Below, one piece after another: positions 5,558-32,000 of a stretch of DNA of 32,000 bases. Origin of the DNA: Telmatocola sphagniphila (lineage in GTDB: Bacteria; Planctomycetota; Planctomycetia; Gemmatales; Gemmataceae); contig NZ_CP074694.1 of assembly GCF_018398935.1 (NCBI RefSeq), positions 1,770,001 to 1,802,000 of the forward strand, in the 5' to 3' direction. The notes below the pieces were generated by a model that had not been told where the DNA came from, searched no databases, and saw only the letters and a list, made by a program, of their open reading frames with translations. The translations under genes were made by a program, and so were the position numbers. Each line of letters begins with the position of its first letter. The first letter of the stretch is position 1.

Positions 5558-5635
5558 AGTTTTTGATCTTGAACAAATCGGAAGGTTCGGTTATCGCTCC
5601 GCGGCGTGTTCCTCAACCCCGGAAGGATAACCGAC

Positions 5636-6994
5636 ATGTTGAAAAAGCTATTCGTCGCCGGCCTGGCGACTGCACTTTCGTTTCAATCGAGTTTTGCCCA
5701 AGAAAACCAAGCTATTATTCGCATCAAGGCTCACGTCTTCGAAGTGAGTGACGAAGCGTTTCGCGATTTGAATCTGTCCAAATTCACTAAGGGACGCGAT
5801 TTGGAAGCTTTATCGCCCCAATCGGAAGCAAAGCTACTACATGATTTGCAATTGCGTCAGGATTTAAAAGGCGATTGCTCGCTCATCGCCATGCCCCAAA
5901 TGGCAACAGATTCTGGAAGAGAATGTACCATAAATGTAGGGCATAAAGCCTCTTTTTTAACCAAAGTGACTATCGAAAGTCAAAATGGCCATATTGTGTA
6001 TCTTCCAAAATCGGAAGAGGTGGATTTGGGCTTCAAATTGGCCTGCACTGCCAAGAGTTCGACAGACAAGCAAACGATTAATATGAATGTGAAAGCTGAG
6101 ATAAAATCGCTGGCGAACGAAGGGCACGTGCCGCTATTTCCTATTACTACCGTAATTACTCCGGTCTACGAGGGTGGTTCGCAGGGTCAGCCCATTGAGG
6201 CCATCCAGTACATCCAACAGCCAGAATTTAATCAAACCGAAAACAGCATTTCGATGGGTATGCGCGCGGGTTTCGCCAATGTTGTAGAGCTAGGTCAGGA
6301 AAAACGTGCGGTGAACCTCAAATGCCAAAATCCGATTCTGGCGGAGGTTCCTTACCTAAACAGGTTGTTCACTCAGCAGAAATCATCGACATGTAATATT
6401 CATTATGTGATGATCGTCCTGGCGGATGTCTTACCAGCGACCAGTAGTCCCGCTTGTATTACGGTTAAGGAAATGCCGCCGAGTGCAACTACGATGACAC
6501 TCAGTGCACTAAATATTCCGATTCAGGAAGTTGTTCCTCCTCAGCCGATCGCCTTAACCTTTTCGGCCGTGGCTCCCGCGCCGATGACTTCCATTCAGCC
6601 AGTCGGTTGGACTACGGTTCAGGTAGCAAATACTAATGCCCTCCCTGCGATCACTCTTAGTGATTACTTGGCTCAGCAGGCGCCTCCTTCGGTTCCCGTC
6701 CCTCCGCCCGTTGCGGTTGCTCCGCCGGCGTTATTCAAGGTCGCTATGCCTGAGGCATGCATTACAACACAGGATTTCTGTGTGACTCTGCCAGCGGAAA
6801 AAGTCATTCGAGAATGCATTTATACCCAGGCTGCGAATTCGATTGCCGGTTCAACCAAGTGTGCGAACAGGGAAATCCTAAAGATCCTGCTGGAACAGTA
6901 CGAAGTCGCTTGCAAGGCGGGCGATTTGGCCAAGGCCAAAACCATCGCCGCGTTCTGCATGGATATGGATCCGACCTGCTTCGCTAACAGATAG
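5636..6994 (+). CDS. exported secretin-like (type II/III secretion system secretin family-like) protein with Pro-rich and Cys-rich C-terminal region
   Basis: The start is taken at ATG 5636 (GGAAGGA lies 8 nt upstream). Signal peptide MLKKLFVAGLATALSFQSSFAQE. Secretin-domain-like blocks are AIIRIKAHVFEVSDEAFRDL, SLIAMPQMATDSGRECTINVG and NPILAEVPYLNRLFTQQK...YVMIVLADVL. The last ~190 aa are Pro-rich and then Cys-rich. Confidence 0.55.
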   Translation: MLKKLFVAGLATALSFQSSFAQENQAIIRIKAHVFEVSDEAFRDLNLSKFTKGRDLEALSPQSEAKLLHDLQLRQDLKGDCSLIAMPQMATDSGRECTINVGHKASFLTKVTIESQNGHIVYLPKSEEVDLGFKLACTAKSSTDKQTINMNVKAEIKSLANEGHVPLFPITTVITPVYEGGSQGQPIEAIQYIQQPEFNQTENSISMGMRAGFANVVELGQEKRAVNLKCQNPILAEVPYLNRLFTQQKSSTCNIHYVMIVLADVLPATSSPACITVKEMPPSATTMTLSALNIPIQEVVPPQPIALTFSAVAPAPMTSIQPVGWTTVQVANTNALPAITLSDYLAQQAPPSVPVPPPVAVAPPALFKVAMPEACITTQDFCVTLPAEKVIRECIYTQAANSIAGSTKCANREILKILLEQYEVACKAGDLAKAKTIAAFCMDMDPTCFANR

Positions 6995-14915: not shown

Positions 14916-15013
14916 GGAATACTCCGTTTACAGGGACTACCAAAGTAGATGTATTGCAAGCGGGAAAATCGTGCATAGCTTTAACTAGAGATTCGCATCC
15001 TGGAGAATTCACC

Positions 15014-16120
15014 ATGAGTATCGATGCCGTTCCCATTCGCCGAATCGACCATGTCCGCTTTTTTGTTGGCAACGCCCGGCAATCCGCGTTTTTCTACCGC
15101 AACGCCTTCGGATTCGATGTGGTCGCCTACGCCGGATTGGAAACCAAGGTTCGGCATGAGGCAGGCTATATTCTGAAATCGGGAGATATCACCTTTGCCC
15201 TGATTTCCCCGTTAAAATCTTCGCACCCCGAATATCCCCGGCTAGTGACGCACGGCGACGGCGTGATGGATATCGCGCTGGAAGTGGATGACGTCAAAAA
15301 AGCTTATAACGAAACGGTTTATCGAGGGGCTGTCGGTGTGGTGGGACCCACCGTGCTGGAAGATGAGCAAGGGCAATATGAGTTTGCCTCGATTCGAACG
15401 TATGGAGATACAACCCACAGCTTTGTGAATCGCGACAAATACAAGGGAGTTTTCTCCCCAGGGTTCAAGCCGCTCGACCCCGGACGTTACAACCCGAACA
15501 CCGCCAAGCCGGCCGGCCTGAAAAATATCGATCACATCGTAGGGAACGTCGAACTCGGCAAAATGAATGATTGGGTGGAATACTACAAGAAAATCATGGG
15601 ATTTGATCAGTTGGTTTCCTTTGACGATAAACAGATCTCCACCGAATACACGGCACTTATGTCGAAAGTGGTTCAGGGAGGCGATGGCCGGGTGAAGTTC
15701 CCTTTGAACGAACCCGCCCAGGGGCGGCGTAAATCGCAAATCGATGAATACCTGGACTTCTACGGCGGACCCGGTGTACAGCATATCGCCCTGGCCACGG
15801 ATGACATTATCAAGACGGTGAAAGCTCTTCGGGCGAATGATGTGAGTTTTCTGCGAGTTCCGAAGACCTATTACGAAATGTTGCCCAGCCGGGTGGGTCC
15901 GATCAAAGAAAATATCGACGAATTGGCCGATTTGGGAATTCTCGTTGACCGCGATGACGAAGGCTACATGCTGCAAATCTTCACCAAGCCGGTCTGCGAC
16001 CGACCGACCGTGTTTTTTGAGATTATCCAGCGGGCGGGATCGAAGAGCTTCGGTAAAGGGAATTTTAAAGCCTTGTTCGAAGCCATCGAACGGGAGCAGG
16101 CAAAGAGAGGAACGCTGTAA
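15014..16120 (+). CDS. hppD: 4-hydroxyphenylpyruvate dioxygenase
   Basis: IDHVRFFVGNARQSAFFY, two VOC-fold modules, and the C-terminal hallmark FGKGNFKALFEAIEREQAKRGTL. ATG 15014 lies 7 nt after GGAGA; the tracked ORF starts at 14954. The stop TAA overlaps the next ATG by 1 nt. Confidence 0.9.
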   Translation: MSIDAVPIRRIDHVRFFVGNARQSAFFYRNAFGFDVVAYAGLETKVRHEAGYILKSGDITFALISPLKSSHPEYPRLVTHGDGVMDIALEVDDVKKAYNETVYRGAVGVVGPTVLEDEQGQYEFASIRTYGDTTHSFVNRDKYKGVFSPGFKPLDPGRYNPNTAKPAGLKNIDHIVGNVELGKMNDWVEYYKKIMGFDQLVSFDDKQISTEYTALMSKVVQGGDGRVKFPLNEPAQGRRKSQIDEYLDFYGGPGVQHIALATDDIIKTVKALRANDVSFLRVPKTYYEMLPSRVGPIKENIDELADLGILVDRDDEGYMLQIFTKPVCDRPTVFFEIIQRAGSKSFGKGNFKALFEAIEREQAKRGTL

Positions 16121-17109
16121 TGATTCGACTAGAATCGCTTCACATCAGCCGCTTTCGAGGCATCCGAGAAGGGAAGATCGAAGGCTTCACTGACGTGAAC
16201 ATCCTCGTTGGAAAAAACAATTCCGGCAAGACGACCGTGATGGAAGCGATCATGCGATGCATCGATTCTTGGACTTCCATGCCAGATATTATGGGAAGGG
16301 ATGTGCCCAATACTTGGAGTGAGATAAGAAAAAGCGGAACTCCAAGTATAATTTCGGACTTCTGGTATCAGCAAGATCTGTCTACTAACGCCAACTTGAG
16401 TATCACTTTAAAAAATGCGGATACCAATTCTCAGATTCAGTTAATTCGTTTTTCGGTCACTTACTCCAAGGATACACACGGAAATCTAAATGCTTTACCT
16501 CAAGGCGATTCAGTTCATGTAACTGGTAATTGGGTTACATTTCGCAAAGGACTAATTCTTATCCAGCCTGAGGATTGCCGAAACAGCAGAATCGAAGAGT
16601 TATTTTGGCAGAGCATCCTCTCCAATCGAAGAGACAAAATCTTACTTAAAAACTTGAACGAAGTTTTCGGCCTAAATGCAGAAGCTTTACAACTGATTCC
16701 GCCTAACAAATTAATGGTGCTCTACGACAACTATGGAATCCCTCTCGATGTGCTGGGGGATGGAACACGAAGTGCATTAAGAGCCTTAATTCTGCTCTCG
16801 ATGGTAAAATCCTGCTTGGTACTGATGGAAGAGCCTGAATGCTATCAGCATCCGGGCTCACTCGAAAAGTTTGCACTCGCCGTTACCAAATTGGCTCAGC
16901 AGCAACAAATCCAACTGATTTTATCGACGCATAGCATCGAATGCGTCAACGCCTTCCTCAAGGCTGCGAAAACCGTTGCTTCAAATGCCGCTGTTTTCCA
17001 TCTGAGCGTGAAGGATGGCCATCAGATCGCTCGCAAACTCGAAACGGAAACCGTGGAAACTCTTGAAAGCACTGGAATCGATGTGAGGTTCGCCGATCTT
17101 TATGCCTGA
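16120..17109 (+). CDS. compact SMC/RecF/OLD-type ABC ATPase (AAA_15/AAA_21-like), candidate defence-system sensor/ATPase subunit
   Basis: N-terminal MIRLESLHISRFRGI, Walker A GKNNSGKT (aa 31-38), signature-like LGDGTRSAL (212-220), Walker B LVLMEEPE (233-240) and H-loop LSTHS (268-272). It has no transmembrane partner. It is much more AT-rich than the flanks. An SD-like GAGAGG lies 9 nt upstream, inside the hppD 3' end. Confidence 0.8.
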   Translation: MIRLESLHISRFRGIREGKIEGFTDVNILVGKNNSGKTTVMEAIMRCIDSWTSMPDIMGRDVPNTWSEIRKSGTPSIISDFWYQQDLSTNANLSITLKNADTNSQIQLIRFSVTYSKDTHGNLNALPQGDSVHVTGNWVTFRKGLILIQPEDCRNSRIEELFWQSILSNRRDKILLKNLNEVFGLNAEALQLIPPNKLMVLYDNYGIPLDVLGDGTRSALRALILLSMVKSCLVLMEEPECYQHPGSLEKFALAVTKLAQQQQIQLILSTHSIECVNAFLKAAKTVASNAAVFHLSVKDGHQIARKLETETVETLESTGIDVRFADLYA

Positions 17110-17884
17110 AAATCGCTTAATTACAATTCTCTATGAAGGGGATGACGATAAAGCAGTGCTTCAGAAACTGCAAGCGTGCGGATTGATTCCTCCTTCGAAC
17201 GAAGTGAAAATAGCAGAGAGAGACAAAACCAAACACCCTGGCAAGGAAGGTCTTTATGGGCAATTGCTACCCATAATCCACCCATTTAAGGGGTTGGATG
17301 GTAGAGCAATCGTCCTGATGGATCTCGACGGGAACTCTCATCAAGGCTTGCAAAACGAATTTAGAGATGCCTTAAAAGCAAGTCTCAGGAACGACACAGT
17401 TCCGATAAAGATCACTGATGGAAATCGAGTTGGCAGGCTTGAGGAAATCGTTCTTGAGTACGAGGAAAGGCGGGGAAGCGTTGTTTTGGTTCCAGTAGGC
17501 AACCCAGAGGACAAAGAAGTCTCCTCTAAATATGGAATTGATCGCTTCGCTATCGATGATTGGATTCTAAAACTTGCCTTGCACCAGCAGGCTTTTGAAG
17601 CCGTTTCAGAATTTGAAAAGCTCGGCTATGATCGTGCCCTGAAGAAGTTCGAGGAAGTCTCAGATCTTCTTCGAAACAATAGCTTAGAAGTTCGGAAGGC
17701 AAAAACCTATGTTCAAATTCTTAGGTTGATCGCCGATATTCGCCCCTCGACCGCAACCGTTATCGGGCGTATAGTCGAGAAGGCCTTCGCAAGTTTAGGT
17801 CGCGAGGAGTTCACGAGGCTTCTGAAACCTTTTCTATCGGACCTGAACGATGCCAGCTCGATTCTGAGGAGGACTGAATCGTGA
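17102..17884 (+). CDS. TOPRIM-like protein (DUF4435/DUF3226/RloB-type partner), candidate nuclease effector
   Basis: There is an 8-nt overlap (ATGCCTGA) with the ATPase gene. ILYEGDDD (Glu12) and VLMDLDGN (Asp74, Asp76) give the E...DxD arrangement of a TOPRIM fold. The C-terminal ~110 aa are helical with no motif I recognise. The family call is from motifs only. Confidence 0.55.
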   Translation: MPENRLITILYEGDDDKAVLQKLQACGLIPPSNEVKIAERDKTKHPGKEGLYGQLLPIIHPFKGLDGRAIVLMDLDGNSHQGLQNEFRDALKASLRNDTVPIKITDGNRVGRLEEIVLEYEERRGSVVLVPVGNPEDKEVSSKYGIDRFAIDDWILKLALHQQAFEAVSEFEKLGYDRALKKFEEVSDLLRNNSLEVRKAKTYVQILRLIADIRPSTATVIGRIVEKAFASLGREEFTRLLKPFLSDLNDASSILRRTES

Positions 17885-18597
17885 TCCCCCTTCCCCCCGT
17901 GCGGTCCTTGCGGGATTTTTACGCCTTCGAACAACATGTCAAAACCTGCCGGGCCCAGCGCGGGCTGGAGATGGTGAAGGAATGGTACGAAATACCCGTT
18001 TTTTACTTCTCGAATCCCGCGGCGATCATCGGTGACGGCGATACTGTCTATGCCCCCTGTGGTTCGCAAGCACTCGACTATGAGCTAGAGATCGCCTGCG
18101 TCATCGGTCAAAAAGGTCGAAACCTGGTCGCCGACGATTCCGCCCTAAGTTACATTCTCGGCTTTACAATAATGAATGACTGGTCCGCCCGCGACATTCA
18201 ACGAAAAGAAATGGCCGTGGGACTCGGGCCGAGCAAGGGTAAGGATTTTGCCACTTCCCTGGGCCCGGGTGTCGTACCCATGTCCGAATTGATGGATGTT
18301 TATAAGGACGGCCGATTACATCTGGAAATGACGGCCCGCGTTAATGGCAAAGAGTACTCTCGCGGCAACGCCGGAAGCATCCATTATACCTGGCCACAGC
18401 TTCTGGCACATGCGAGCCGGGATGCCGATCTGTTACCGGGCGATGTGATCGGCTCCGGAACTGTGGGTACTGGCTGCATCCTGGAATTAACCCCCGAGAA
18501 GGTTGGGGGATGGCTGAAAGCGGGCGATCGGGTGGAACTGATCGTAGAAAGATTAGGAACACTTCGGAATGAAGTGATCGCCAGACCGCCCTTGTAA
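17881..18597 (+). CDS. fumarylacetoacetate hydrolase (FAH) family protein, catalytic domain only
   Basis: SLRDFYAFEQHV, WYEIPVFYFSNP, LDYELEIACVIG, GFTIMNDWSARDIQ and GDVIGSGTVGTG match the FAH catalytic domain. The GTG start overlaps the upstream stop (GTGA) and lies 8 nt after GAGGAGG (17866-17872). Confidence 0.8.
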   Translation: MIPLPPVRSLRDFYAFEQHVKTCRAQRGLEMVKEWYEIPVFYFSNPAAIIGDGDTVYAPCGSQALDYELEIACVIGQKGRNLVADDSALSYILGFTIMNDWSARDIQRKEMAVGLGPSKGKDFATSLGPGVVPMSELMDVYKDGRLHLEMTARVNGKEYSRGNAGSIHYTWPQLLAHASRDADLLPGDVIGSGTVGTGCILELTPEKVGGWLKAGDRVELIVERLGTLRNEVIARPPL

Positions 18598-18606
18598 ATC
18601 GGGAGA

Positions 18607-19782
18607 ATGTCGATGCCTTACTACCGCCAATTTGGGTCGATCCCCCCCAAACACCATATCGAACATCCCCAGATACCCGGCTATCGTAACGAAGGAATCT
18701 TCTACGAAGAGGTCATCACCACCGAGGGTTTTAACCGGGCCTACAGTATTCTCTATCACCTGCGGCCCCCGACCCGGGTAAAACATCAGGAGCACCTCAA
18801 GAGCATTGCGATCGAATTGGTGAGTGATCCGATGCTCCGGCACATTCACTTGAAAACCAAGGAGATTGCACGCGCGGGTGATGTGATTTTTGGCCGAACC
18901 CCGATGTTCCATAATTCGGATGTGACGATCTCCCGTTGTCGGCCCGCGAAACAACAGGAACAGCTTTACAAAAATGCCTCGGCCGATGAGGTGCTATTCA
19001 TTCACAGTGGTTCGGGGGTTCTGCACTCGCTCTATGGAAAGCAAGCTTTTCATCCTTTCGACTATGTTGTGATCCCGCGCGGAACGATTTACAAAATCGT
19101 TTTCGACGACATTCAGAAGGCCGACCTGCTGATCGTCGACTCCCCGCCGCCGATTCGCCTCCCGCACCGCTACAAGAATGCCGATGGGCAGATTCGGCTG
19201 GGGGCTCCTTATAGTGAACGGGATTTTCACGGCCCCTCTCAACTCGATATCGTCGATCAGGAAGCCGATACGGAATTGATCCTGAAAAAAGGTGAGAACT
19301 ATTTCCGATACGTTCTGGCCAGCCATCCCTTCGACGTGGTGGGGTGGGATGGCCTGATCTACCCTTATACCTTTAATGCGGACGATTTCGAACCGATCAC
19401 CGGTACGATTCATCAGCCGCCGCCCATCCACCAGACCTTTGAAACGAGTGGCTTCGTCATCTGCACTTTTGCACCGCGTGTTCTGGATACTCATCCCAAA
19501 GCCGTAAAAGTCCCTTATGCCCATTCGAACGTCGATTCGGATGAAGTTCTCTATTACGTTCGGGGCAAATTCGGTTCTCGGCGTGGGGTGGAGGAATCTT
19601 CTTTTACCTTGCATCCGTTGGGAATTCCACACGGCCCGCATCCCGGCACCATCGTGGCCAGCCGAGCGCACACTCGGACGGATGAACTGGCCGTAATGAT
19701 TGACACATTTCGACCGCTGCATCTCACCCAAGTTGCGATAGAATACGACGATCCGAAATATCCTTTGAGTTGGCTGGAATAG
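18607..19782 (+). CDS. hmgA: homogentisate 1,2-dioxygenase (short bacterial cupin type)
   Basis: MPYYRQFGSIPPKHH..., PYAHSNVDSDEVLYYV and HPLGIPHGPHPG (His ligands), with a length of ~390 aa. ATG 18613 (MPYY) is an equally good start given GGGAGA at 18601-18606. Confidence 0.8.
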   Translation: MSMPYYRQFGSIPPKHHIEHPQIPGYRNEGIFYEEVITTEGFNRAYSILYHLRPPTRVKHQEHLKSIAIELVSDPMLRHIHLKTKEIARAGDVIFGRTPMFHNSDVTISRCRPAKQQEQLYKNASADEVLFIHSGSGVLHSLYGKQAFHPFDYVVIPRGTIYKIVFDDIQKADLLIVDSPPPIRLPHRYKNADGQIRLGAPYSERDFHGPSQLDIVDQEADTELILKKGENYFRYVLASHPFDVVGWDGLIYPYTFNADDFEPITGTIHQPPPIHQTFETSGFVICTFAPRVLDTHPKAVKVPYAHSNVDSDEVLYYVRGKFGSRRGVEESSFTLHPLGIPHGPHPGTIVASRAHTRTDELAVMIDTFRPLHLTQVAIEYDDPKYPLSWLE

Positions 19783-19794
19783 GTGGAAAGCGGC

Positions 19795-20400
19795 ATGAGG
19801 ATCGATCCCAAGACGACCAACCCCGTAGATGTGTATCAGGCTCTCGTCGGTCTAGTCACTCCCCGACCTATTGCCTGGGTAAGTACCGTCGACGCCCAGG
19901 GGCGTCCCAATCTGGCCCCGTTCAGCTTCTTCAACGTGTTCAGCGCCAATCCGCCGGTCGTGGTTTTCTCGCCGACCTTGCGACGCGACGGCACCAAAAA
20001 GGGAACGCTTTTAAATATCGAAGCAACCAGCGAATTCGTTATTCACATTCCCACGAACGATCTGGTCGAGCCGATGAATCTGACGGCCAAGGAATTGCCC
20101 GAGGGGGAAAGCGAATTCGATCTCGCGAAACTGACTCCGATTCCGTCGGAAAAGGTGAAGCCGCCGCGCATCCAGGAATCGCCGACAGCACTGGAATGCA
20201 AACTTCAGCAGATCATTCCCCTGGGGCATGGCCCCATTGCCGGAAATCTGGTGATTGGGGAAATTCTGCTCATCCATTTCGAAGATCGACTCCTGGGTGC
20301 AGACGGCAAAATCGACCCCCATAAAATGCAGTCGATTGGCCGCCTGGGCGGCGATTACTATGCCCGAACGACCGATCTATTTGCATTGAAGAGACCGTAA
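19795..20400 (+). CDS. flavin reductase-like (FMN-binding split-barrel) protein
   Basis: VYQALVGLVTPRPIAWVSTVDAQGRPNLAPFSFFNVFSANPPVVVFS is the classic flavin-reductase-domain N-terminus. The ORF is open from GTG 19783, immediately after the hmgA stop. Confidence 0.85.
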   Translation: MRIDPKTTNPVDVYQALVGLVTPRPIAWVSTVDAQGRPNLAPFSFFNVFSANPPVVVFSPTLRRDGTKKGTLLNIEATSEFVIHIPTNDLVEPMNLTAKELPEGESEFDLAKLTPIPSEKVKPPRIQESPTALECKLQQIIPLGHGPIAGNLVIGEILLIHFEDRLLGADGKIDPHKMQSIGRLGGDYYARTTDLFALKRP

Positions 20401-20404
20401 ATCC

Positions 20405-20887
20405 ATGATTCATCCACTGCAGCCTTCCCACAAATCGCATCTGGTGCCGCTGGTCGATAAGACCGGCGTTTTCAAACCGAACGAAGTCGAGACGCTGGAT
20501 AGCCTCCTGGAGGGCTACTTCGACGCCTATCACAAGGAGGATCAGCACCGCTCGTTCGTGCTCGAGGAAGAGGGCCACATTCGGGGCTTCGTTTATTTTG
20601 CCCCGGAAGATTCCACGATGACCGACCGCACCTGGACGCTCTATTGGATCGCGGTGGACGTTACCAAACAGCGTGGCGGCTACGGCAAGAAGCTGATGAA
20701 TTTCGTGGAGGATTACATTCGGAAGGAGAACGGCCGCCTCCTGCTGATCGAAACCTCCTCCACTCCCAAGTACGAACCGACTCGAAACTTCTACTTGAAA
20801 TATGGCTACGTCCAGGTGGCCTTGGTACCCGACTTCTATTCGGACGGGGATGGCAAGGTTATCTTCGCCAAACATCTGCAGCGCTAG
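20405..20887 (+). CDS. GNAT family N-acetyltransferase
   Basis: Acetyl-CoA binding motif VDVTKQRGGYGKKLMNFV and the C-terminal NFYLKYGY; 160 aa; starts 4 nt after the upstream stop. Confidence 0.85.
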   Translation: MIHPLQPSHKSHLVPLVDKTGVFKPNEVETLDSLLEGYFDAYHKEDQHRSFVLEEEGHIRGFVYFAPEDSTMTDRTWTLYWIAVDVTKQRGGYGKKLMNFVEDYIRKENGRLLLIETSSTPKYEPTRNFYLKYGYVQVALVPDFYSDGDGKVIFAKHLQR

Positions 20888-21549: not shown

Positions 21550-22128
21550 ATGAAAAAAGTGTTTACCACTGGCCAAGTCGCCAAAATCTGTAAGGTGGCG
21601 CCGCGGACGGTGTCCAAGTGGTTCGATTCGGGCCGTTTACGGGGCTATCGTATCCCCGGCAGTCAGGATCGTCGAATTCCCCGCGAACAGCTGATCCGTT
21701 TCCTGAAGGAACACGGAATGCCGTTGGGTGAACTCGAAGAAGAAGAGTGGCACAAGATCCTGGTGATCGGTGCCGAAAAGCTCTTCATCGATCGGATGAA
21801 GGAAATGCTTCCTGAATCCGAAGATTTCAAGTATGAAATCGCCCAGAGCGGTTTCGAAGCCGGCATTATGGCCGAAAGCTTCCATCCAGATACGATTGTG
21901 ATCGATCTGGCTCTGGGACGCAGCGAAGCGATTCAAATCGTGTCGAATCTTCGCCGCAATCCCGCTTACGAAACCACTTTGATCATCGGCCTGGCATCCG
22001 AAGACGAAGCGGCTCCCGAAAAGCTGATCGAATACGGCTTCACCGAAATCTTCAAAAAGCCTTTCGATGTCGCGCTGCTCGGCGAACGGGTCAAGACTCT
22101 CGCCGACGCCAAACGAGACGATATTTAA
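21550..22128 (+). CDS. excisionase/MerR-type HTH + receiver-domain regulator (degenerate acidic pocket)
   Basis: The N-terminal MKKVFTTGQVAKICKVAPRTVSKWFDSGRLRGYRIPGSQDRRIPREQLIRFL is an HTH_17-like domain. The receiver-like part has ILVIGAE in place of the DD(E) pair, Asp119 in IVIDLAL, Ser150 and Lys170-Pro. GGAGAGG lies upstream. Confidence 0.8.
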   Translation: MKKVFTTGQVAKICKVAPRTVSKWFDSGRLRGYRIPGSQDRRIPREQLIRFLKEHGMPLGELEEEEWHKILVIGAEKLFIDRMKEMLPESEDFKYEIAQSGFEAGIMAESFHPDTIVIDLALGRSEAIQIVSNLRRNPAYETTLIIGLASEDEAAPEKLIEYGFTEIFKKPFDVALLGERVKTLADAKRDDI

Positions 22129-31147: not shown

Positions 31148-31180
31148 GCGAGAGAGCATTTTCCCTCGCTTTTATGTTTC
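31148..31180 (+). terminator. weak rho-independent terminator candidate
   Basis: GCGAG (31148-52) / CTCGC (31165-69) form a stem extendable by one G-C pair, followed by TTTTATGTTT. The stem is short. Confidence 0.35.
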
Positions 31181-32000
31181 AGCCTTCAAAGCGGAAATCC
31201 GAATCGAGTGATTCCCGCAGCAAAAAACCAAACGCTACAAAAACCAGACTGGTATGGTGATGCCAGCCCAGCCAGTTCCGGCCCTCAAAGTGTCCTAAGC
31301 CCAAATTGTTTCGCAACCACTCGTACAACCTAAAAACGCAGCGGCCATCTTCGGGGGACTCTTGCAGGTTAGCACAATTATGGAATTGTCGAGATTGCAA
31401 TCCATCGGAGAACTGGCCGGTCAGGGAGTAGCCCTCCTCGGCGTACATACGGCCGAAAGTGATGTCTTTGAATTGAAGGTCGTCGAGCATATTCAGGGCG
31501 ATGGTCGCTTTGGGAGAATATTGGCGGGCGGACAGCGGAATCGAAGAATCGAACTTCTGCTCGAGATTCGCCCGGAGCCACTGGTTGGGCAGATAAAGCC
31601 GGACCGCCAAGGGCACGGCAAAACGTTCAGAGGTGGCTGTGATTGCCACGGCCACCTGGCAGTTGGATTTCCGCCCCAGACTGCGGGCCAGCTGTCTTTG
31701 AACCCCGACGGAATGACGGCCTTTTTTCGGGTAAACGATATCGTGCACTACCCAATCGGTCTTTTCCCAAGGAAGCAATTCCGCGAGGAACTGCCGGTAG
31801 CGTTTCAGCAATAAATCGTGATTCCAAGGGCTCTGAGCGATGAAGTGCTGTAGGGCCTGGCCGAAATCGGGCTGAGCGGATACGTACGGCAAAGACGCGG
31901 TTGCAATCGATTCGATGTTCTTGCGTTCGGCTTTCGAGAGCAGGCCCAAGATGTAGGCTCGGAACCGCTGGAACTGATCCGATCGTTGAAAAACCGTCTT
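31179..32000 (-). CDS. IS701/IS4-like DDE transposase, 5' end beyond the window; possibly degenerate
   Basis: The - strand frame stays open to base 32000 (..KTVFQRSDQFQRFRAYILGLLSKAERKNIESIA..), matching the IS701-family N-terminal pattern. It also has VVHDIVYPKKGRHSVGVQRQ, AEEGYS and the C-terminal LGLGHFEGRNWLGWHHHTSLVFVAFGFL. No terminal inverted repeats are identifiable because the other end is outside the window. Confidence 0.65.
   Translation of the reverse strand, partial: KTVFQRSDQFQRFRAYILGLLSKAERKNIESIATASLPYVSAQPDFGQALQHFIAQSPWNHDLLLKRYRQFLAELLPWEKTDWVVHDIVYPKKGRHSVGVQRQLARSLGRKSNCQVAVAITATSERFAVPLAVRLYLPNQWLRANLEQKFDSSIPLSARQYSPKATIALNMLDDLQFKDITFGRMYAEEGYSLTGQFSDGLQSRQFHNCANLQESPEDGRCVFRLYEWLRNNLGLGHFEGRNWLGWHHHTSLVFVAFGFLLRESLDSDFRFEG

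What the first reader, a model, noticed from the sequence alone, without database searches (positions are those of the whole stretch)
16100..17900. The cassette is an AT-rich island joined by overlapping stop/start codons into the homogentisate (tyrosine catabolism) operon
I counted G+C by hand in single 60-nt lines. Inside the cassette, the lines starting at 16381, 16441 and 16501 have 22, 22 and 23 G+C (37-38%). The line at 17521 has 23 (38%), 17641 has 26 (43%) and 17161 has 28 (47%). Flanking hppD (line 15961) has 32 (53%) and fah (line 18001) has 33 (55%). Despite this foreign composition the cassette has no intergenic DNA of its own. The hppD TAA shares one base with the cassette ATG (TAATG at 16118-16122). 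The cassette stop overlaps the fah GTG (GTGA at 17881-17884). The SD for gene A (GAGAGG, 16105-10) lies in the last hppD codons, and the SD for fah (GAGGAGG, 17866-72) lies in the last codons of gene B. A defence-like module that is obligatorily co-transcribed and translationally coupled with a catabolic operon is unusual. It implies either expression tied to tyrosine/homogentisate metabolism or a non-defence role. The lowest GC falls in the variable insert of the ATPase (aa ~85-150), where a sensor or specificity region would be expected.
Basis: partly seen in the sequence, partly recalled or inferred. Interest (0 to 1): 0.65.

Follow-up and report, generated by a model that had tools for sequence, protein, structure and literature searches.

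The report
Defence-type gene pair inside tyrosine operon
A foreign, AT-rich pair of genes (an OLD-type ATPase and a probable nuclease, of the kind bacteria use against phages) was spliced into the one-base stop/start overlap between two genes of a tyrosine-breakdown operon, so it probably rides on that operon's transcription and translation; a tidy insertion event, not a new kind of system.

Summary
Gene A (16120-17109) and gene B (17102-17884) are the lowest-GC, most codon-atypical stretch of the window (45.6% vs 53.4% GC). They have no intergenic DNA: TAATG with hppD, ATGCCTGA between A and B, GTGA with fah.

None of 80 related Planctomycetota hppD loci carries A or B. The closest relative found (hppD 90% identical) has the empty site, where the hppD TAA overlaps the fah ATG. 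So this is a lineage-specific insertion into a translationally coupled junction, flanked by a 4-nt repeat (TGAT).

A is an intact OLD/Rad50-type ABC ATPase; its best defence-model hits are PDC-M38A and AbiLi. B has no direct family hit and no structural neighbour. By profile it is a divergent DUF3226 protein, distantly linked to mad4 and PDC-M38B, with Toprim-like E and DxD motifs.

In relatives, A and B always occur together with the same 8-nt overlap. They sit either inside DUF1156-DUF499 BREX-related defence loci or alone, sometimes with a relic of the methylase gene upstream.

The same hppD|fah junction holds Uma2 endonuclease or IVP genes in other relatives. Co-transcription and defence function are inferred, not shown. 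Verdict: a new member of a known kind in an unusual context.

The parts
15014..16120 (+). hppD (4-hydroxyphenylpyruvate dioxygenase), first gene of the operon. The longest ORF starts at 14954.
   Evidence: TIGR01263 scores 432 bits against a cut-off of 277. The C-terminus GNFKALFEAIEREQAKRGTL* is identical to that of the closest relative L104, so the gene end is native.
16118..16122 (+). Left junction TAATG: the hppD stop TAA shares one base with the gene A ATG.
   Evidence: In the empty site of L104 the same TAATG joins hppD to fah.
16120..17109 (+). Gene A, 329 aa, an OLD/Rad50-type ABC ATPase.
   Evidence: Pfam AAA_15 78.5 bits (cut-off 32.1) and AAA_21 61.4 bits. PADLOC PDC-M38A 2.7e-29, AbiLi 2.9e-29, AriA 7.8e-22. 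PDB by sequence: OLD 6p74 9e-7, AriA 8ux9 4e-4. AF2 pLDDT 90; Foldseek hits to Rad50, PtuA, OLD and GajA heads at E 1e-13 to 1e-11.
16210..16233 (+). Walker A / P-loop of A (G31-K-N-N-S-G-K37-T38).
   Evidence: G31, N33, N34, G36 and K37 are invariant in 32 homologues.
16267..16569 (+). Hypervariable insert of A (about aa 50-150), predicted as a beta-rich subdomain. It holds the GC minimum of the window.
   Evidence: Unalignable across 32 homologues. GC is 38.7% at 16401-16700. AF2 predicts strands 91-99, 105-117 and 123-131 with pLDDT 68-92.
16756..16932 (+). ABC signature-like GDGTR (213-217), Walker B LVLMEE (233-238) and H-loop H271 of A.
   Evidence: G213, D214, G215, E238, Q243, H244, P245, T270, H271 and S272 are invariant. 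All catalytic motifs are intact.
17102..17109 (+). A/B junction ATGCCTGA: the B start lies 8 nt inside the end of A.
   Evidence: The same 8-nt overlap, ATGCCTGA in all of them but L090 (ATGTCTAG), is seen in relatives L002, L006, L007, L008, L090 and L093.
17102..17884 (+). Gene B, 260 aa, a divergent DUF3226-like protein and probable Toprim-type nuclease with a C-terminal helical domain.
   Evidence: No direct Pfam, PADLOC or NCBIfam hit. The profile finds 165 cluster representatives. Ten of 65 distant members hit DUF3226; smaller numbers hit mad4, PDC-M38B and HEC-01B. hhalign to the DUF3226 member P0227 gives 97.6% probability. AF2 pLDDT is 91. No Foldseek neighbour in PDB or BFVD.
17135..17137 (+). 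Codon of E12 of B, just after strand 1. It is the only residue invariant in the whole family.
   Evidence: It aligns with the Glu of the EGxxD motif of PDB 1t6t, the best though non-significant PDB hit at E 0.07.
17321..17329 (+). Codons of D74-L-D76 of B (DxD at the end of strand 3).
   Evidence: Invariant in the close family and at least 90% conserved in the broad family. AF2 places strand 68-74 just before it.
17555..17560 (+). Codons of D152-D153 of B (IDRFAIDDW motif). Together with K201 (17702-17704) these are further near-invariant polar residues.
17866..17872 (+). GAGGAGG Shine-Dalgarno for fah, inside the non-conserved C-terminal tail (RRTES) of B.
   Evidence: Strongest anti-SD duplex of 24 starts in the window, -11.7 kcal/mol. 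The tail is not present in B homologues.
17881..17884 (+). Right junction GTGA: the B stop TGA overlaps the fah GTG start.
   Evidence: Relatives start fah with ATG, as M-L-PVPPVR in L104 and M-A-IPLPPVR in L039. Here it is GTG-ATC-CCC.
16121..16124 (+). Left copy of the 4-nt direct repeat TGAT that flanks the insert. The right copy is at 17882-17885, 1761 nt (587 codons) away.
   Evidence: Read from the sequence. Its role as microhomology or target duplication is an inference.
17881..18597 (+). fah-like gene (FAA_hydrolase family), downstream neighbour.
   Evidence: PF01557 184.6 bits. In 46 of the 80 related loci a fah homologue lies downstream of hppD; of the 32 junctions read, most are under 60 nt.
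18607..20887 (+). Rest of the operon: hmgA-like cupin dioxygenase (18607-19782), flavin reductase (19783-20400) and GNAT (20405-20887), with gaps of 9, 0 and 4 nt.
   Evidence: The order hppD-fah-hmgA-like-flavin reductase is conserved in about 30 related loci.

Best explanation
A 1.76-kb two-gene module was acquired horizontally. It was inserted exactly into the 1-nt stop/start overlap (TAATG) that originally joined hppD to fah.

Gene A is an ABC ATPase of the OLD/AbiLi/PDC-M38A type. It has all catalytic motifs and a hypervariable beta-rich insert. Gene B is a divergent DUF3226-family protein with Toprim-like E...DxD acidic motifs and a conserved helical C-domain.

The module comes from a lineage of dyads that normally sit between the DUF1156 methyltransferase and the DUF499 ATPase of BREX-related (MADS/MANTIS-type) defence loci. 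There the A start codon already overlaps the methylase stop codon.

The join is most simply explained by illegitimate recombination at microhomology. The donor reads ..TGATGATCCGA and the inferred recipient ..TAATGATCCCC. This left TGAT on both sides of the insert. The consequences were:
- A took over the coupled ATG that belonged to fah.
- B now ends on a TGA made partly of host bases.
- fah restarts on GTG (GTGA), behind a very strong SD that lies in the tail of B.

The module has no intergenic DNA, so it is most likely transcribed from the hppD promoter and translated by coupling: hppD to A, A to B, B to fah.

By analogy with PARIS, AbiL and mad3/mad4, A would act as an ATP-dependent sensor or scaffold that keeps B in check. 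On a phage cue, B would act as a metal-dependent nuclease, giving an abortive-infection or backup-effector role.

Shown: the insertion, the foreign composition, the overlaps, the intact motifs, strict A-B co-occurrence and the defence-locus contexts in relatives. Inferred: the recombination mechanism, co-transcription, nuclease activity and anti-phage function.
For: Insertion. None of 80 related hppD loci contains A or B, and 46 of them have a fah homologue downstream of hppD. The closest relative L104 (hppD 90% aa identity) has hppD TAATG fah with identical flanking protein ends.

Foreign composition. GC is about 8 points below the window (GC3 about 11-13 points below its hppD and fah neighbours), and codon z-scores are -2.8 and -4.5.

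No mobile-element signatures at the boundaries and no Rfam element in the window.

Gene A. Pfam and PADLOC hits, all ABC motifs invariant, and Foldseek matches to Rad50, PtuA, OLD and GajA heads.

Gene B. The family has 165 cluster representatives. Distant members reach DUF3226 above its gathering score, and also mad4, PDC-M38B and HEC-01B. hhalign gives 97.6%. A fused A+B protein, P0220, exists. E12, D74 and D76 are conserved. The best PDB sequence hit of the N-domain profile, 1t6t (E 0.07), aligns both motifs.

Strict pairing. All 17 loci with a close A homologue have B directly downstream, with the same 8-nt overlap where it was checked.

Origin. The dyad lies between DUF1156 and DUF499 in L002-L005 and L007, with a 1-nt overlap to the methylase. 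A relic of the methylase C-terminus lies upstream of the standalone copies L008/L009 and L091/L092, at E 1e-8 to 1e-11.

Literature. BREX and BREX-related systems recruit OLD-ABC plus nuclease dyads inside their operons as backup effectors (PMC12839542). mad3 and mad4 are each needed for MADS phage resistance, and a mad3 deletion strain was still used to produce methylated plasmid (bioRxiv 10.1101/2023.03.30.534895).

Coupling. The overlaps TAATG, ATGCCTGA and GTGA, and the strongest SD of the window before fah.
Against: The window's B gives no direct hit to any Pfam, PADLOC or NCBIfam model.

Its confident AF2 model has no significant Foldseek neighbour in PDB or BFVD. The Toprim and nuclease assignment therefore rests on motifs, topology and remote profile links.

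A's matches to AbiLi, PDC-M38A and AriA cover only the conserved ATPase halves. NCBIfam MAD3 scores 32 bits against a cut-off of 420.

Most relatives of the dyad sit among housekeeping genes rather than in defence islands. Nothing else in this window is defence-related.

No B homologue was found in the phage or plasmid collections.

The 4-nt repeat is short and partly forced by start-codon function. The ancestral second codon of fah (ATC) is inferred, not observed: L104 has TTG.

Internal promoters cannot be excluded. Two weak sigma-70-like sites lie in the 3' part of B.
Confidence: 0.6

Rival explanations
1. The pair is a non-defence housekeeping or repair module: an SMC/RecF/Rad50-like ATPase plus a Toprim-like partner acting on host DNA. 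It happens to be mobile, and its place in the operon has no link to immunity.
For: Most dyad relatives lie among housekeeping genes: next to aldolase and holA in L090, after ribosomal protein L3 in L106, and near respiratory-complex genes in L093. A also hits RecF, Rad50 and SMC models, and Rad50 and SMC heads by fold. There is no direct defence-model hit for B.
Against: The distribution is patchy and rare: 16 close B clusters among 5.8 billion proteins, and absence from 80 related hppD loci. Composition is AT-shifted in every host examined. The dyad is embedded in DUF1156-DUF499 defence loci, and relics of that origin remain in standalone copies. A's best profile hits are defence ATPases. A core repair function would be vertically conserved.
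Confidence: 0.15
2. The cassette is transcriptionally autonomous. Promoter activity inside the 3' end of hppD or inside A/B drives it, and possibly fah as well. The overlaps are then only a packing accident, not a regulatory tie to tyrosine catabolism.
For: Weak sigma-70-like matches at 17605-17632 and 17747-17775 on the + strand lie upstream of fah. AT-rich foreign DNA often creates spurious promoters (general knowledge). Planctomycete promoters are not covered by the consensus scan.
Against: The number of promoter-like sites is below the shuffle expectation, 4 against 6.5 +/- 3.0, and none lies upstream of A. There is no terminator-like site between hppD and A. The stop/start overlaps on both sides, and the SD in the tail of B, fit translational coupling within one mRNA.
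Confidence: 0.2
3. The cassette is a decaying passenger: a recent, neutral or slightly harmful insertion on its way to loss, with no current function.
For: Composition is not ameliorated. The cassette was seen only in this genome. The core BREX-related partner genes (methylase, DUF499, helicase) are absent from the window. One relative, L091, has a frameshifted B.
Against: Both ORFs are full length. They keep every residue that is invariant in 32 A homologues and 14 B homologues, including the Walker A and B, H-loop, E12 and DxD positions. The internal 8-nt coupling overlap is retained. Standalone dyads without a BREX-related system are the commonest context, so the pair can persist alone.
Confidence: 0.1
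4. The GC dip is not a sign of foreign origin. It would reflect amino-acid composition and relaxed constraint in a fast-evolving native gene pair.
For: The dip is deepest in the hypervariable insert of A. Dyad relatives also have GC 1.5-7 points below their flanks while tracking host GC.
Against: GC3 and synonymous-codon choice, which do not depend on amino-acid content, are the most deviant in the window. The genes are absent from the empty site of the closest relative and from all 80 related loci.
Confidence: 0.03

Closest known systems
PADLOC candidate system PDC-M38 (PDC-M38A ATPase + PDC-M38B)
   Same: It gives the best defence-model hit for A (PDC-M38A, 2.7e-29). Four of the 65 distant B-family members hit PDC-M38B models, two for each of two models, at 4e-4 and 8e-4. 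Both are two-gene ATPase-plus-partner modules.
   Different: The window's B does not hit PDC-M38B. A matches only in the two conserved ATPase halves. PDC-M38 is itself an uncharacterised candidate system.
MADS components mad3 (ABC ATPase) and mad4
   Same: A hits the NCBIfam MAD3 model (8e-8), and distant B relatives hit PADLOC mad4 (4e-5). In relatives the dyad lies directly after the DUF1156-type methyltransferase of BREX-related loci, which parallels mad2-mad3-mad4. mad3 and mad4 are each needed for phage resistance in P. aeruginosa (bioRxiv 10.1101/2023.03.30.534895).
   Different: The scores are far below the equivalog cut-off, 32 bits against 420. No methylase, DUF499 or helicase gene is present in this window, so the dyad stands alone inside a catabolic operon.
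PARIS (AriA OLD-type ABC ATPase + AriB DUF4435 Toprim nuclease)
   Same: Both are two-gene modules of an ABC ATPase and a small acidic-motif partner. A hits AriA models (7.8e-22) and the AriA structure 8ux9 by sequence (4e-4). PARIS-like dyads are reported inside BREX and BREX-related operons (PMC12839542).
   Different: B has no DUF4435 or AriB hit, and its model finds no AriB-like fold. A's insert is predicted beta-rich rather than coiled-coil. The trigger and the target (tRNA for AriB) are unknown here.
AbiL (AbiLi ATPase + AbiLii) abortive-infection system of Lactococcus
   Same: AbiLi is the joint best PADLOC hit of A (2.9e-29). Both are two-gene abortive-infection-type modules.
   Different: B does not hit AbiLii. 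The taxa are unrelated. The mechanism of AbiL is itself unknown (own knowledge).
OLD-family nucleases (P2 Old, class 1/2 OLD, Gabija GajA): ATPase and Toprim in one chain
   Same: The best solved-structure sequence hit of A is OLD nuclease 6p74 (9e-7), and Foldseek finds 6p74 and GajA. B carries E...DxD motifs in the order of a Toprim core. One family member, P0220, is an A+B fusion with the OLD-like domain order.
   Different: Here the two domains are separate polypeptides. The OLD-like_TOPRIM Pfam model is hit only weakly, by one distant B relative (E 0.005, below its cut-off).
Pfam DUF3226 (PF11536)
   Same: Ten of 65 distant B-family members hit it, and P0227 does so above the gathering score (33.7 bits against 27). 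hhalign of the close B family against P0227 gives 97.6% probability over 193 columns.
   Different: The window's B itself does not reach the model. The family has no described function, and no paper in the searched library mentions it.

Membership tests
OLD/Rad50-type ABC ATPase (Pfam AAA_15 / AAA_21) | Profile score above the curated cut-off | tested here: met
   AAA_15 78.5 bits (cut-off 32.1); AAA_21 61.4 bits (cut-off 27).
OLD/Rad50-type ABC ATPase (Pfam AAA_15 / AAA_21) | Walker A, signature-like motif, Walker B acidic pair and H-loop all present | tested here: met
   G31xNNxGK37T, G213-D-G-T-R, E237-E238 and H271 are invariant or nearly so in 32 homologues and present in the window protein.
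OLD/Rad50-type ABC ATPase (Pfam AAA_15 / AAA_21) | ABC head fold | tested here: met
   AF2 pLDDT 90.2. Foldseek hits to Rad50, PtuA, OLD 6p74, SMC and GajA at E 1e-13 to 1e-11, TM 0.5-0.6. The fold alone does not separate OLD from Rad50 or PtuA.
Toprim-fold nuclease (for B) | Conserved Glu after strand 1 and DxD after strand 3, in a beta-alpha-beta-alpha-beta-alpha core | tested here: met
   E12 is invariant; D74 and D76 are at least 90% conserved across 65 diverse members. The AF2 element order is E7-10, H14-25, E35-37, H49-59, E68-74, H80-95.
Toprim-fold nuclease (for B) | Significant sequence or structure match to a known Toprim protein | tested here: inconclusive
   Foldseek against PDB and BFVD gives nothing at E <= 0.001. 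The N-domain profile's best PDB hit is 1t6t at E 0.07, with both motifs in register; that 1t6t is a Toprim protein is my recollection, not tested. One distant member hits OLD-like_TOPRIM at E 0.005, below its cut-off.
Toprim-fold nuclease (for B) | Metal-dependent nuclease activity | not testable with these tools
   Needs biochemistry.
Pfam DUF3226 | Score above the gathering cut-off for the protein itself | tested here: not met
   No DUF3226 hit for the window's B even at E <= 10.
Pfam DUF3226 | Homology to bona fide members by profile methods | tested here: met
   P0227 (DUF3226, 33.7 bits against 27) is found by the B profile at E 1.8e-6 for the whole library. It aligns to the close family with hhalign probability 97.6%.
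PARIS (AriA + AriB) | AriB-type DUF4435 Toprim partner next to the ATPase | tested here: not met
   B has no DUF4435 or AriB hit in Pfam or PADLOC.
AbiL (AbiLi + AbiLii) | AbiLii-type partner next to an AbiLi-type ATPase | tested here: not met
   A hits AbiLi at 2.9e-29, but B hits no AbiLii model.
PDC-M38 | Both PDC-M38A and PDC-M38B models hit by adjacent genes | tested here: inconclusive
   A hits PDC-M38A at 2.7e-29. B gives no hit, though distant B relatives hit PDC-M38B at 4e-4.
MADS / DUF499-centred BREX-related system | Methyltransferase, DUF499 ATPase and helicase-nuclease genes in the same locus | tested here: not met
   None of these is in the 32-kb window. They flank the dyad only in relatives L002-L005 and L007.
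MADS / DUF499-centred BREX-related system | MAD3 equivalog score | tested here: not met
   NF047739 scores 31.9 bits against a cut-off of 420.
Autonomous mobile element (IS, transposon, integron cassette) | Terminal inverted or long direct repeats, a transposase or integrase, or an attC-like site at the boundaries | tested here: not met
   There are no boundary repeats beyond the 4-nt TGAT. The nearest transposase (DDE_5) is 13 kb away at 31179-31949.
Translationally coupled operon member | Stop/start overlaps with both neighbours on the same strand and no intergenic DNA | tested here: met
   TAATG, ATGCCTGA and GTGA.
Translationally coupled operon member | A single transcript spanning the junctions | not testable with these tools
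   Needs RNA-seq or RT-PCR. The consensus scans are uninformative.

The most novel reading that the evidence does not exclude
In Gemmataceae, the tightly coupled hppD|fah junction of the tyrosine-catabolic operon may act as a recurrent safe harbour. Small nuclease-type selfish or defence genes lodge there and borrow the operon's promoter and ribosomes: the OLD-ABC/DUF3226 dyad here, and Uma2 endonucleases and an IVP protein in relatives. In this strain that would place an abortive-infection-type module under metabolic (tyrosine/homogentisate) control. Its effector, B, would represent a structurally undescribed branch of Toprim-like nucleases.
Probability: 0.15. Interest if true: 0.6.

Novelty: new member of a known kind. 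Interest (0 to 1): 0.38.

Why it matters
It gives a base-resolved example of how a defence-type dyad leaves its home locus, a BREX-related methylase operon. It re-inserts into an unrelated catabolic operon and keeps translational coupling on both sides. An empty site in a close relative defines the event.

It also flags a small, strictly paired protein family: about 65 close A clusters were found (32 aligned) and 165 B cluster representatives, mostly from Planctomycetota metagenomes. Current defence finders miss the B partner, and its confident predicted structure has no solved neighbour.

If the module is really expressed from the hppD promoter, immunity in this strain would depend on a nutritional signal. 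That can be tested with simple RT-PCR. None of this changes current concepts, because OLD-type ATPase plus nuclease dyads and their recruitment into other operons are already described.

Tried and rejected
- Mobile-element boundaries. The repeat search over 15800-18200 found no terminal inverted or direct repeats at the cassette ends. An IS or transposon origin was rejected.
- Internal promoter or terminator. The scans gave counts at or below the shuffle expectation. The hairpin at 17896-17914 is weak (4 G-C plus 2 wobble pairs) and is not conserved in L104, so it is not taken as a terminator.
- RNA elements. Rfam found nothing in the window.
- Direct family assignment of B. Pfam, PADLOC and NCBIfam gave no hit even at E <= 10. 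Only the exhaustive profile search followed by scanning of distant members gave a link.
- Fold search of B against PDB and BFVD. There were no significant matches, only gephyrin E domain and ATP synthase noise at TM <= 0.27. Whole-length profiles against PDB sequences found nothing. The N-domain profile gave only a marginal 1t6t hit.
- The metagenome scan with the single A protein was a poor choice of query. An alignment should have been used.
- The viral-contig scan with the A alignment found only distant ATPases without a B partner. B has no homologue in the phage or plasmid collections. A phage or plasmid origin is therefore not supported.
- DUF3226 in the literature. No paper in the library mentions it. 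The published MADS paper is not held, so the preprint was used instead.
- Homology between the end of hppD and the DUF1156 tail, as a possible carried-over relic in the window. None was found: the hppD C-terminus is native.

Full report
OBSERVATION. The finding is accurate to the base.

The ORF list gives hppD as 14954/15014-16120, gene A as 16120-17109 (329 aa), gene B as 17102-17884 (260 aa) and fah as 17881-18597, all on the + strand. A and B also overlap by 8 nt, ATGCCTGA at 17102-17109. All eight hand-counted 60-nt lines are exact.

The composition is clearly atypical. A is 44.9% GC and B 46.4%, against 53.4% for the window. Their GC3 is 48% and 47%, against 57-75% for all but one of the other ORFs tabulated; the secretin-like gene 5606-6994 has 52%. 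The lowest 300-nt GC of the whole window (38.7%) is at 16401. Only 0.25% of 1765-nt windows have lower GC than the cassette, and the minimum of that scan overlaps it. A synonymous-codon score puts A at z = -2.8 and B at z = -4.5 relative to 21 native genes. The dip is real and is not explained by amino-acid content.

IS IT AN INSERTION? Yes.

A scan of species-representative genomes returned 80 hppD loci, at most 78% identical, labelled Gemmataceae, Pirellula and other Planctomycetota. None contains A or B. In 46 of them a fah homologue lies downstream of hppD, often followed by the hmgA-like gene and a flavin reductase; most of the 32 junctions read are gaps of 2-60 nt. Several relatives have the stop/start overlap TGATG (L030, L039, L045) or TGA-TC-ATG (L015, L017).

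The closest relative found is a JGI metagenome contig, L104, with hppD 90% identical. It shows the empty site...GGTACTTTGTAATGTTGCCCGTGCCGCCGGTGCGG. Here the hppD TAA shares its last A with the fah ATG. The hppD C-termini are identical in L104 and the window (GNFKALFEAIEREQAKRGTL*). The fah N-termini match as well: MLPVPPVRSLRDFYAFE against V-IPLPPVRSLRDFYAFE.

The cassette therefore went exactly into a translationally coupled junction. The window reads CTGTAATGATTCGAC on the left and GAATCGTGATCCCCC on the right. If the ancestor was CTGTAATGATCCCC, the insert is flanked by TGAT (16121-16124 and 17882-17885), 1761 nt or 587 codons apart. This ancestral sequence is my inference. No inverted repeats, long direct repeats, transposase or RNA element mark the boundaries.

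WHAT ARE THE GENES?

Gene A is an ABC ATPase of the OLD/Rad50 class.
- Pfam: AAA_15 78.5 bits and AAA_21 61.4 bits.
- PADLOC: PDC-M38A 2.7e-29, AbiLi 2.9e-29, AriA 7.8e-22, Old, GajA.
- NCBIfam: only weak hits, for example MAD3 at 31.9 bits against a cut-off of 420.
- PDB by sequence: OLD nuclease 6p74 at 9e-7 and AriA 8ux9 at 4e-4.
- Motifs: Walker A, a GDGTR signature-like motif, the Walker B EE pair and the H-loop are invariant in 32 homologues and present here.
- Structure: the AF2 model has pLDDT 90. It matches Rad50, PtuA, OLD, SMC and GajA heads at E 1e-13 to 1e-11.

Residues about 50-150 cannot be aligned across the family and are predicted as a beta-rich subdomain. This is also where the GC minimum lies.

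Gene B gives no hit in Pfam, PADLOC or NCBIfam, even at E <= 10. A word-indexed search found only 16 clusters, at 42-52% identity (42-49% for the full-length ones), from Pirellulales and other Planctomycetota MAGs. A profile search of 1.84 billion cluster representatives found 165 members.

Of 65 diverse members:
- ten hit Pfam DUF3226, and P0227 does so above the gathering score, with residues 5-83 matching profile positions 2-85;
- one of these also hits OLD-like_TOPRIM weakly (E 0.005);
- four hit PADLOC mad4, two each hit two PDC-M38B models, and two hit HEC-01B;
- one, P0220, is a fusion of an A-like ATPase with a B-like domain.

hhalign of the close family against P0227 gives 97.6% probability over 193 columns.

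Across the whole family E12 is invariant. G13, G47, D74, D76, G133, D152, D153 and K201 are at least 90% conserved.

The AF2 model is confident (pLDDT 91.2). Its first elements run strand(7-10)-[E12]-helix-strand-helix-strand(68-74)-[D74xD76]-helix, which is the order of a Toprim core. A beta-meander and a helical C-domain follow.

Foldseek found no significant neighbour in PDB or BFVD. The best PDB sequence hit of an N-domain profile is 1t6t, at a non-significant E of 0.07, but it aligns both acidic motifs in register. I recall 1t6t as a Toprim-domain protein, but did not test that. I therefore call B a probable Toprim-like nuclease. That assignment is an inference, not a demonstrated fold.

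WHERE DOES THE PAIR COME FROM?

Every locus with a close A homologue has B directly downstream: 17 loci in about 10 independent contexts. Six of them (L002, L006, L007, L008, L090, L093) show the same 8-nt overlap.

In L002-L005 and L007 the pair lies between a DUF1156 methyltransferase and a DUF499 ATPase. In L003 there is also an SNF2 helicase. This is a DUF499-centred BREX-related (MADS/MANTIS-type) locus. There the A ATG overlaps the methylase stop by one base...TTCTGATGATCCGA.

Other copies stand alone among housekeeping genes, with 120-200 nt upstream: L006, L008/9, L090, L091/92, L093, L106/107 and L108/109. In L008/9 and L091/92, the 31-37 codons just upstream of A are a relic of the DUF1156 C-terminus, at E 1e-8 to 1e-11. 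So the dyad has repeatedly left BREX-related loci.

A recent survey reports that BREX and BREX-related systems recruit OLD-ABC plus nuclease dyads inside their operons as backup effectors (PMC12839542). In MADS, mad3 and mad4 are each needed for resistance but are not found in all systems, and a mad3 deletion strain was still used to produce methylated plasmid (bioRxiv 10.1101/2023.03.30.534895).

The dyad's GC is 1.5-7 points below its flanks in every host examined, and about 8 points below here. B has no homologue in the phage or plasmid collections.

HOW IT LIKELY WORKS.

Shown: a foreign, intact, strictly paired ATPase-plus-partner module sits with zero intergenic DNA between hppD and fah.

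Inferred, step by step:
1. The module entered by illegitimate recombination at microhomology. The donor reads T-G-ATGATCC and the recipient T-A-ATGATCC.
2. A took over the ATG that was coupled to the hppD stop.
3. B now terminates on a TGA built from the old fah start region.
4. fah restarts at GTG behind GAGGAGG. This is the strongest anti-SD match of 24 starts in the window, -11.7 against -6.9 kcal/mol or weaker. It lies in a C-terminal tail of B (RRTES) that homologues lack.
5. The whole run hppD-A-B-fah-hmgA-like-flavin reductase-GNAT has gaps of 9 nt or less and is probably one mRNA.

By analogy with PARIS, AbiL and mad3/mad4, A would sense a phage cue, perhaps through its hypervariable insert, and would control B, a metal-dependent nuclease. 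Nothing in the window speaks to the trigger or the target.

IS THE CONTEXT UNUSUAL? Less than it first seems.

The same hppD|fah junction holds other inserted genes in relatives:
- a Uma2 putative restriction endonuclease in L105, L022 and L034 (Pfam 1e-21 for L022 and L034; precomputed Pfam annotation for L105);
- a 23S_rRNA_IVP four-helix protein in L040;
- an unknown 325-aa ORF in L037.

The Uma2 and IVP genes are tightly packed with short spacers. The dyad's own home context also uses a 1-nt overlap with the preceding gene. What is particular here is the seamlessness, with overlaps on both sides, and the availability of an empty site.

CAVEATS.
- Only hppD is assigned at equivalog level. 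'fah' (PF01557) and the 'hmgA-like' gene (HgmA_N 30.9 bits; TIGR01015 50 bits against 510) are family-level calls. The conserved synteny still supports one functional unit.
- The promoter and terminator scans are not informative for this phylum.
- The ancestral second codon of fah is inferred.
- P0220 could be a frameshift artefact, and its P-loop reads GR-S instead of GK-T.
- I wasted the single metagenome scan on a single-sequence query.

VERDICT. The structural interpretation is supported: a foreign island spliced in by overlapping codons. The functional implications remain untested: obligatory co-transcription, a metabolic tie and a sensor role for the insert.

The module is a new, poorly detected member of the known class of OLD-type ABC ATPase plus Toprim-like effector dyads, closest to PDC-M38 and mad3/mad4, in an unusual but not unique kind of genomic lodging. 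Interest is moderate to low at 0.38. It is a clean evolutionary vignette and a candidate family for defence-finder models, not a new principle.

Noticed in passing
L105:7128-7673; L022:6006-6578; L034:7122-7694; L040:7183-7590; L037:2351-3328: The hppD|fah junction of related Gemmataceae genomes carries other inserted small genes. These are Uma2 putative restriction endonucleases in three loci, a 23S_rRNA_IVP four-helix-bundle protein in one, and an unknown 325-aa high-GC ORF in one. The Uma2 and IVP genes are packed into the operon with short spacers. The junction looks like a recurrent lodging site.
   Followed up: partly
L008:4684-4791; L009 (same sequence); L091:7906-7998; L092 (same sequence): Directly upstream of 'standalone' A-B dyads lies a 31-37-codon relic of the C-terminus of a DUF1156 methyltransferase. 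The copy in L008 has an in-frame stop. These copies therefore derive from BREX-related loci.
   Followed up: yes
window 5606-6994 (+): A secretin-domain gene (PF00263) is the only other compositionally atypical gene in the window: GC 49%, 300-nt windows down to 43%, codon z = -2.9. It may be a second foreign or fast-evolving gene.
   Followed up: no
window 31179-31949 (-): A DDE_5 superfamily transposase gene lies 13 kb from the cassette. No link to the insertion is evident.
   Followed up: no
window 17896-17914 (+): A terminator-like hairpin (CCCGTGCGGTCCTTGCGGG followed by ATTTTT) lies 12 nt after the cassette, inside the first codons of fah. It is weak (4 G-C plus 2 wobble pairs), the hairpin is not conserved in L104, and the T-run comes from conserved D-F-Y codons. 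It is probably not functional.
   Followed up: partly
window 17860-17884: The last five codons of B (RRTES) have no counterpart in homologues. They encode GAGGAGG 8 nt before the fah GTG, the strongest SD-like site of 24 starts in the window. This may be an adaptation that restores fah translation after the insertion.
   Followed up: partly
L011:3312-3539; L047:7141-7356; L061:7125-7325; L076:7300-7521: A small conserved ORF of 66-75 aa, ending ...DEF.YDFL..LE...RWL.FGV., lies between hppD and the hmgA-like gene in relatives that lack fah at that position. It has no Pfam hit.
   Followed up: no
protein P0220 (547 aa, from the representative library): A single-chain fusion of an A-like ATPase (28% identical to A) and a B-like domain, in the OLD-nuclease domain order. 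Its P-loop reads GR-S instead of GK-T, so it could be degenerate or a frameshift artefact.
   Followed up: partly
L091:8959-9764 vs L092:8959-9765: In two near-identical metagenome contigs, the B homologue is split by a frameshift in one (L091) and intact in the other (L092). This is either a sequencing error or decay in progress.
   Followed up: no
window 21550-22128 (+); L105:12483-13061: A gene encoding an HTH_17 domain plus a response-regulator receiver domain lies downstream of the operon, both here and in a relative with 82% identical hppD. It is a candidate regulator of the cluster.
   Followed up: no
L090:8881-10289: In a Fimbriiglobus MAG, the dyad is followed after 11 nt by an aldolase gene and then holA on the same strand. 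Co-transcription of the dyad with housekeeping genes may therefore occur elsewhere too.
   Followed up: no
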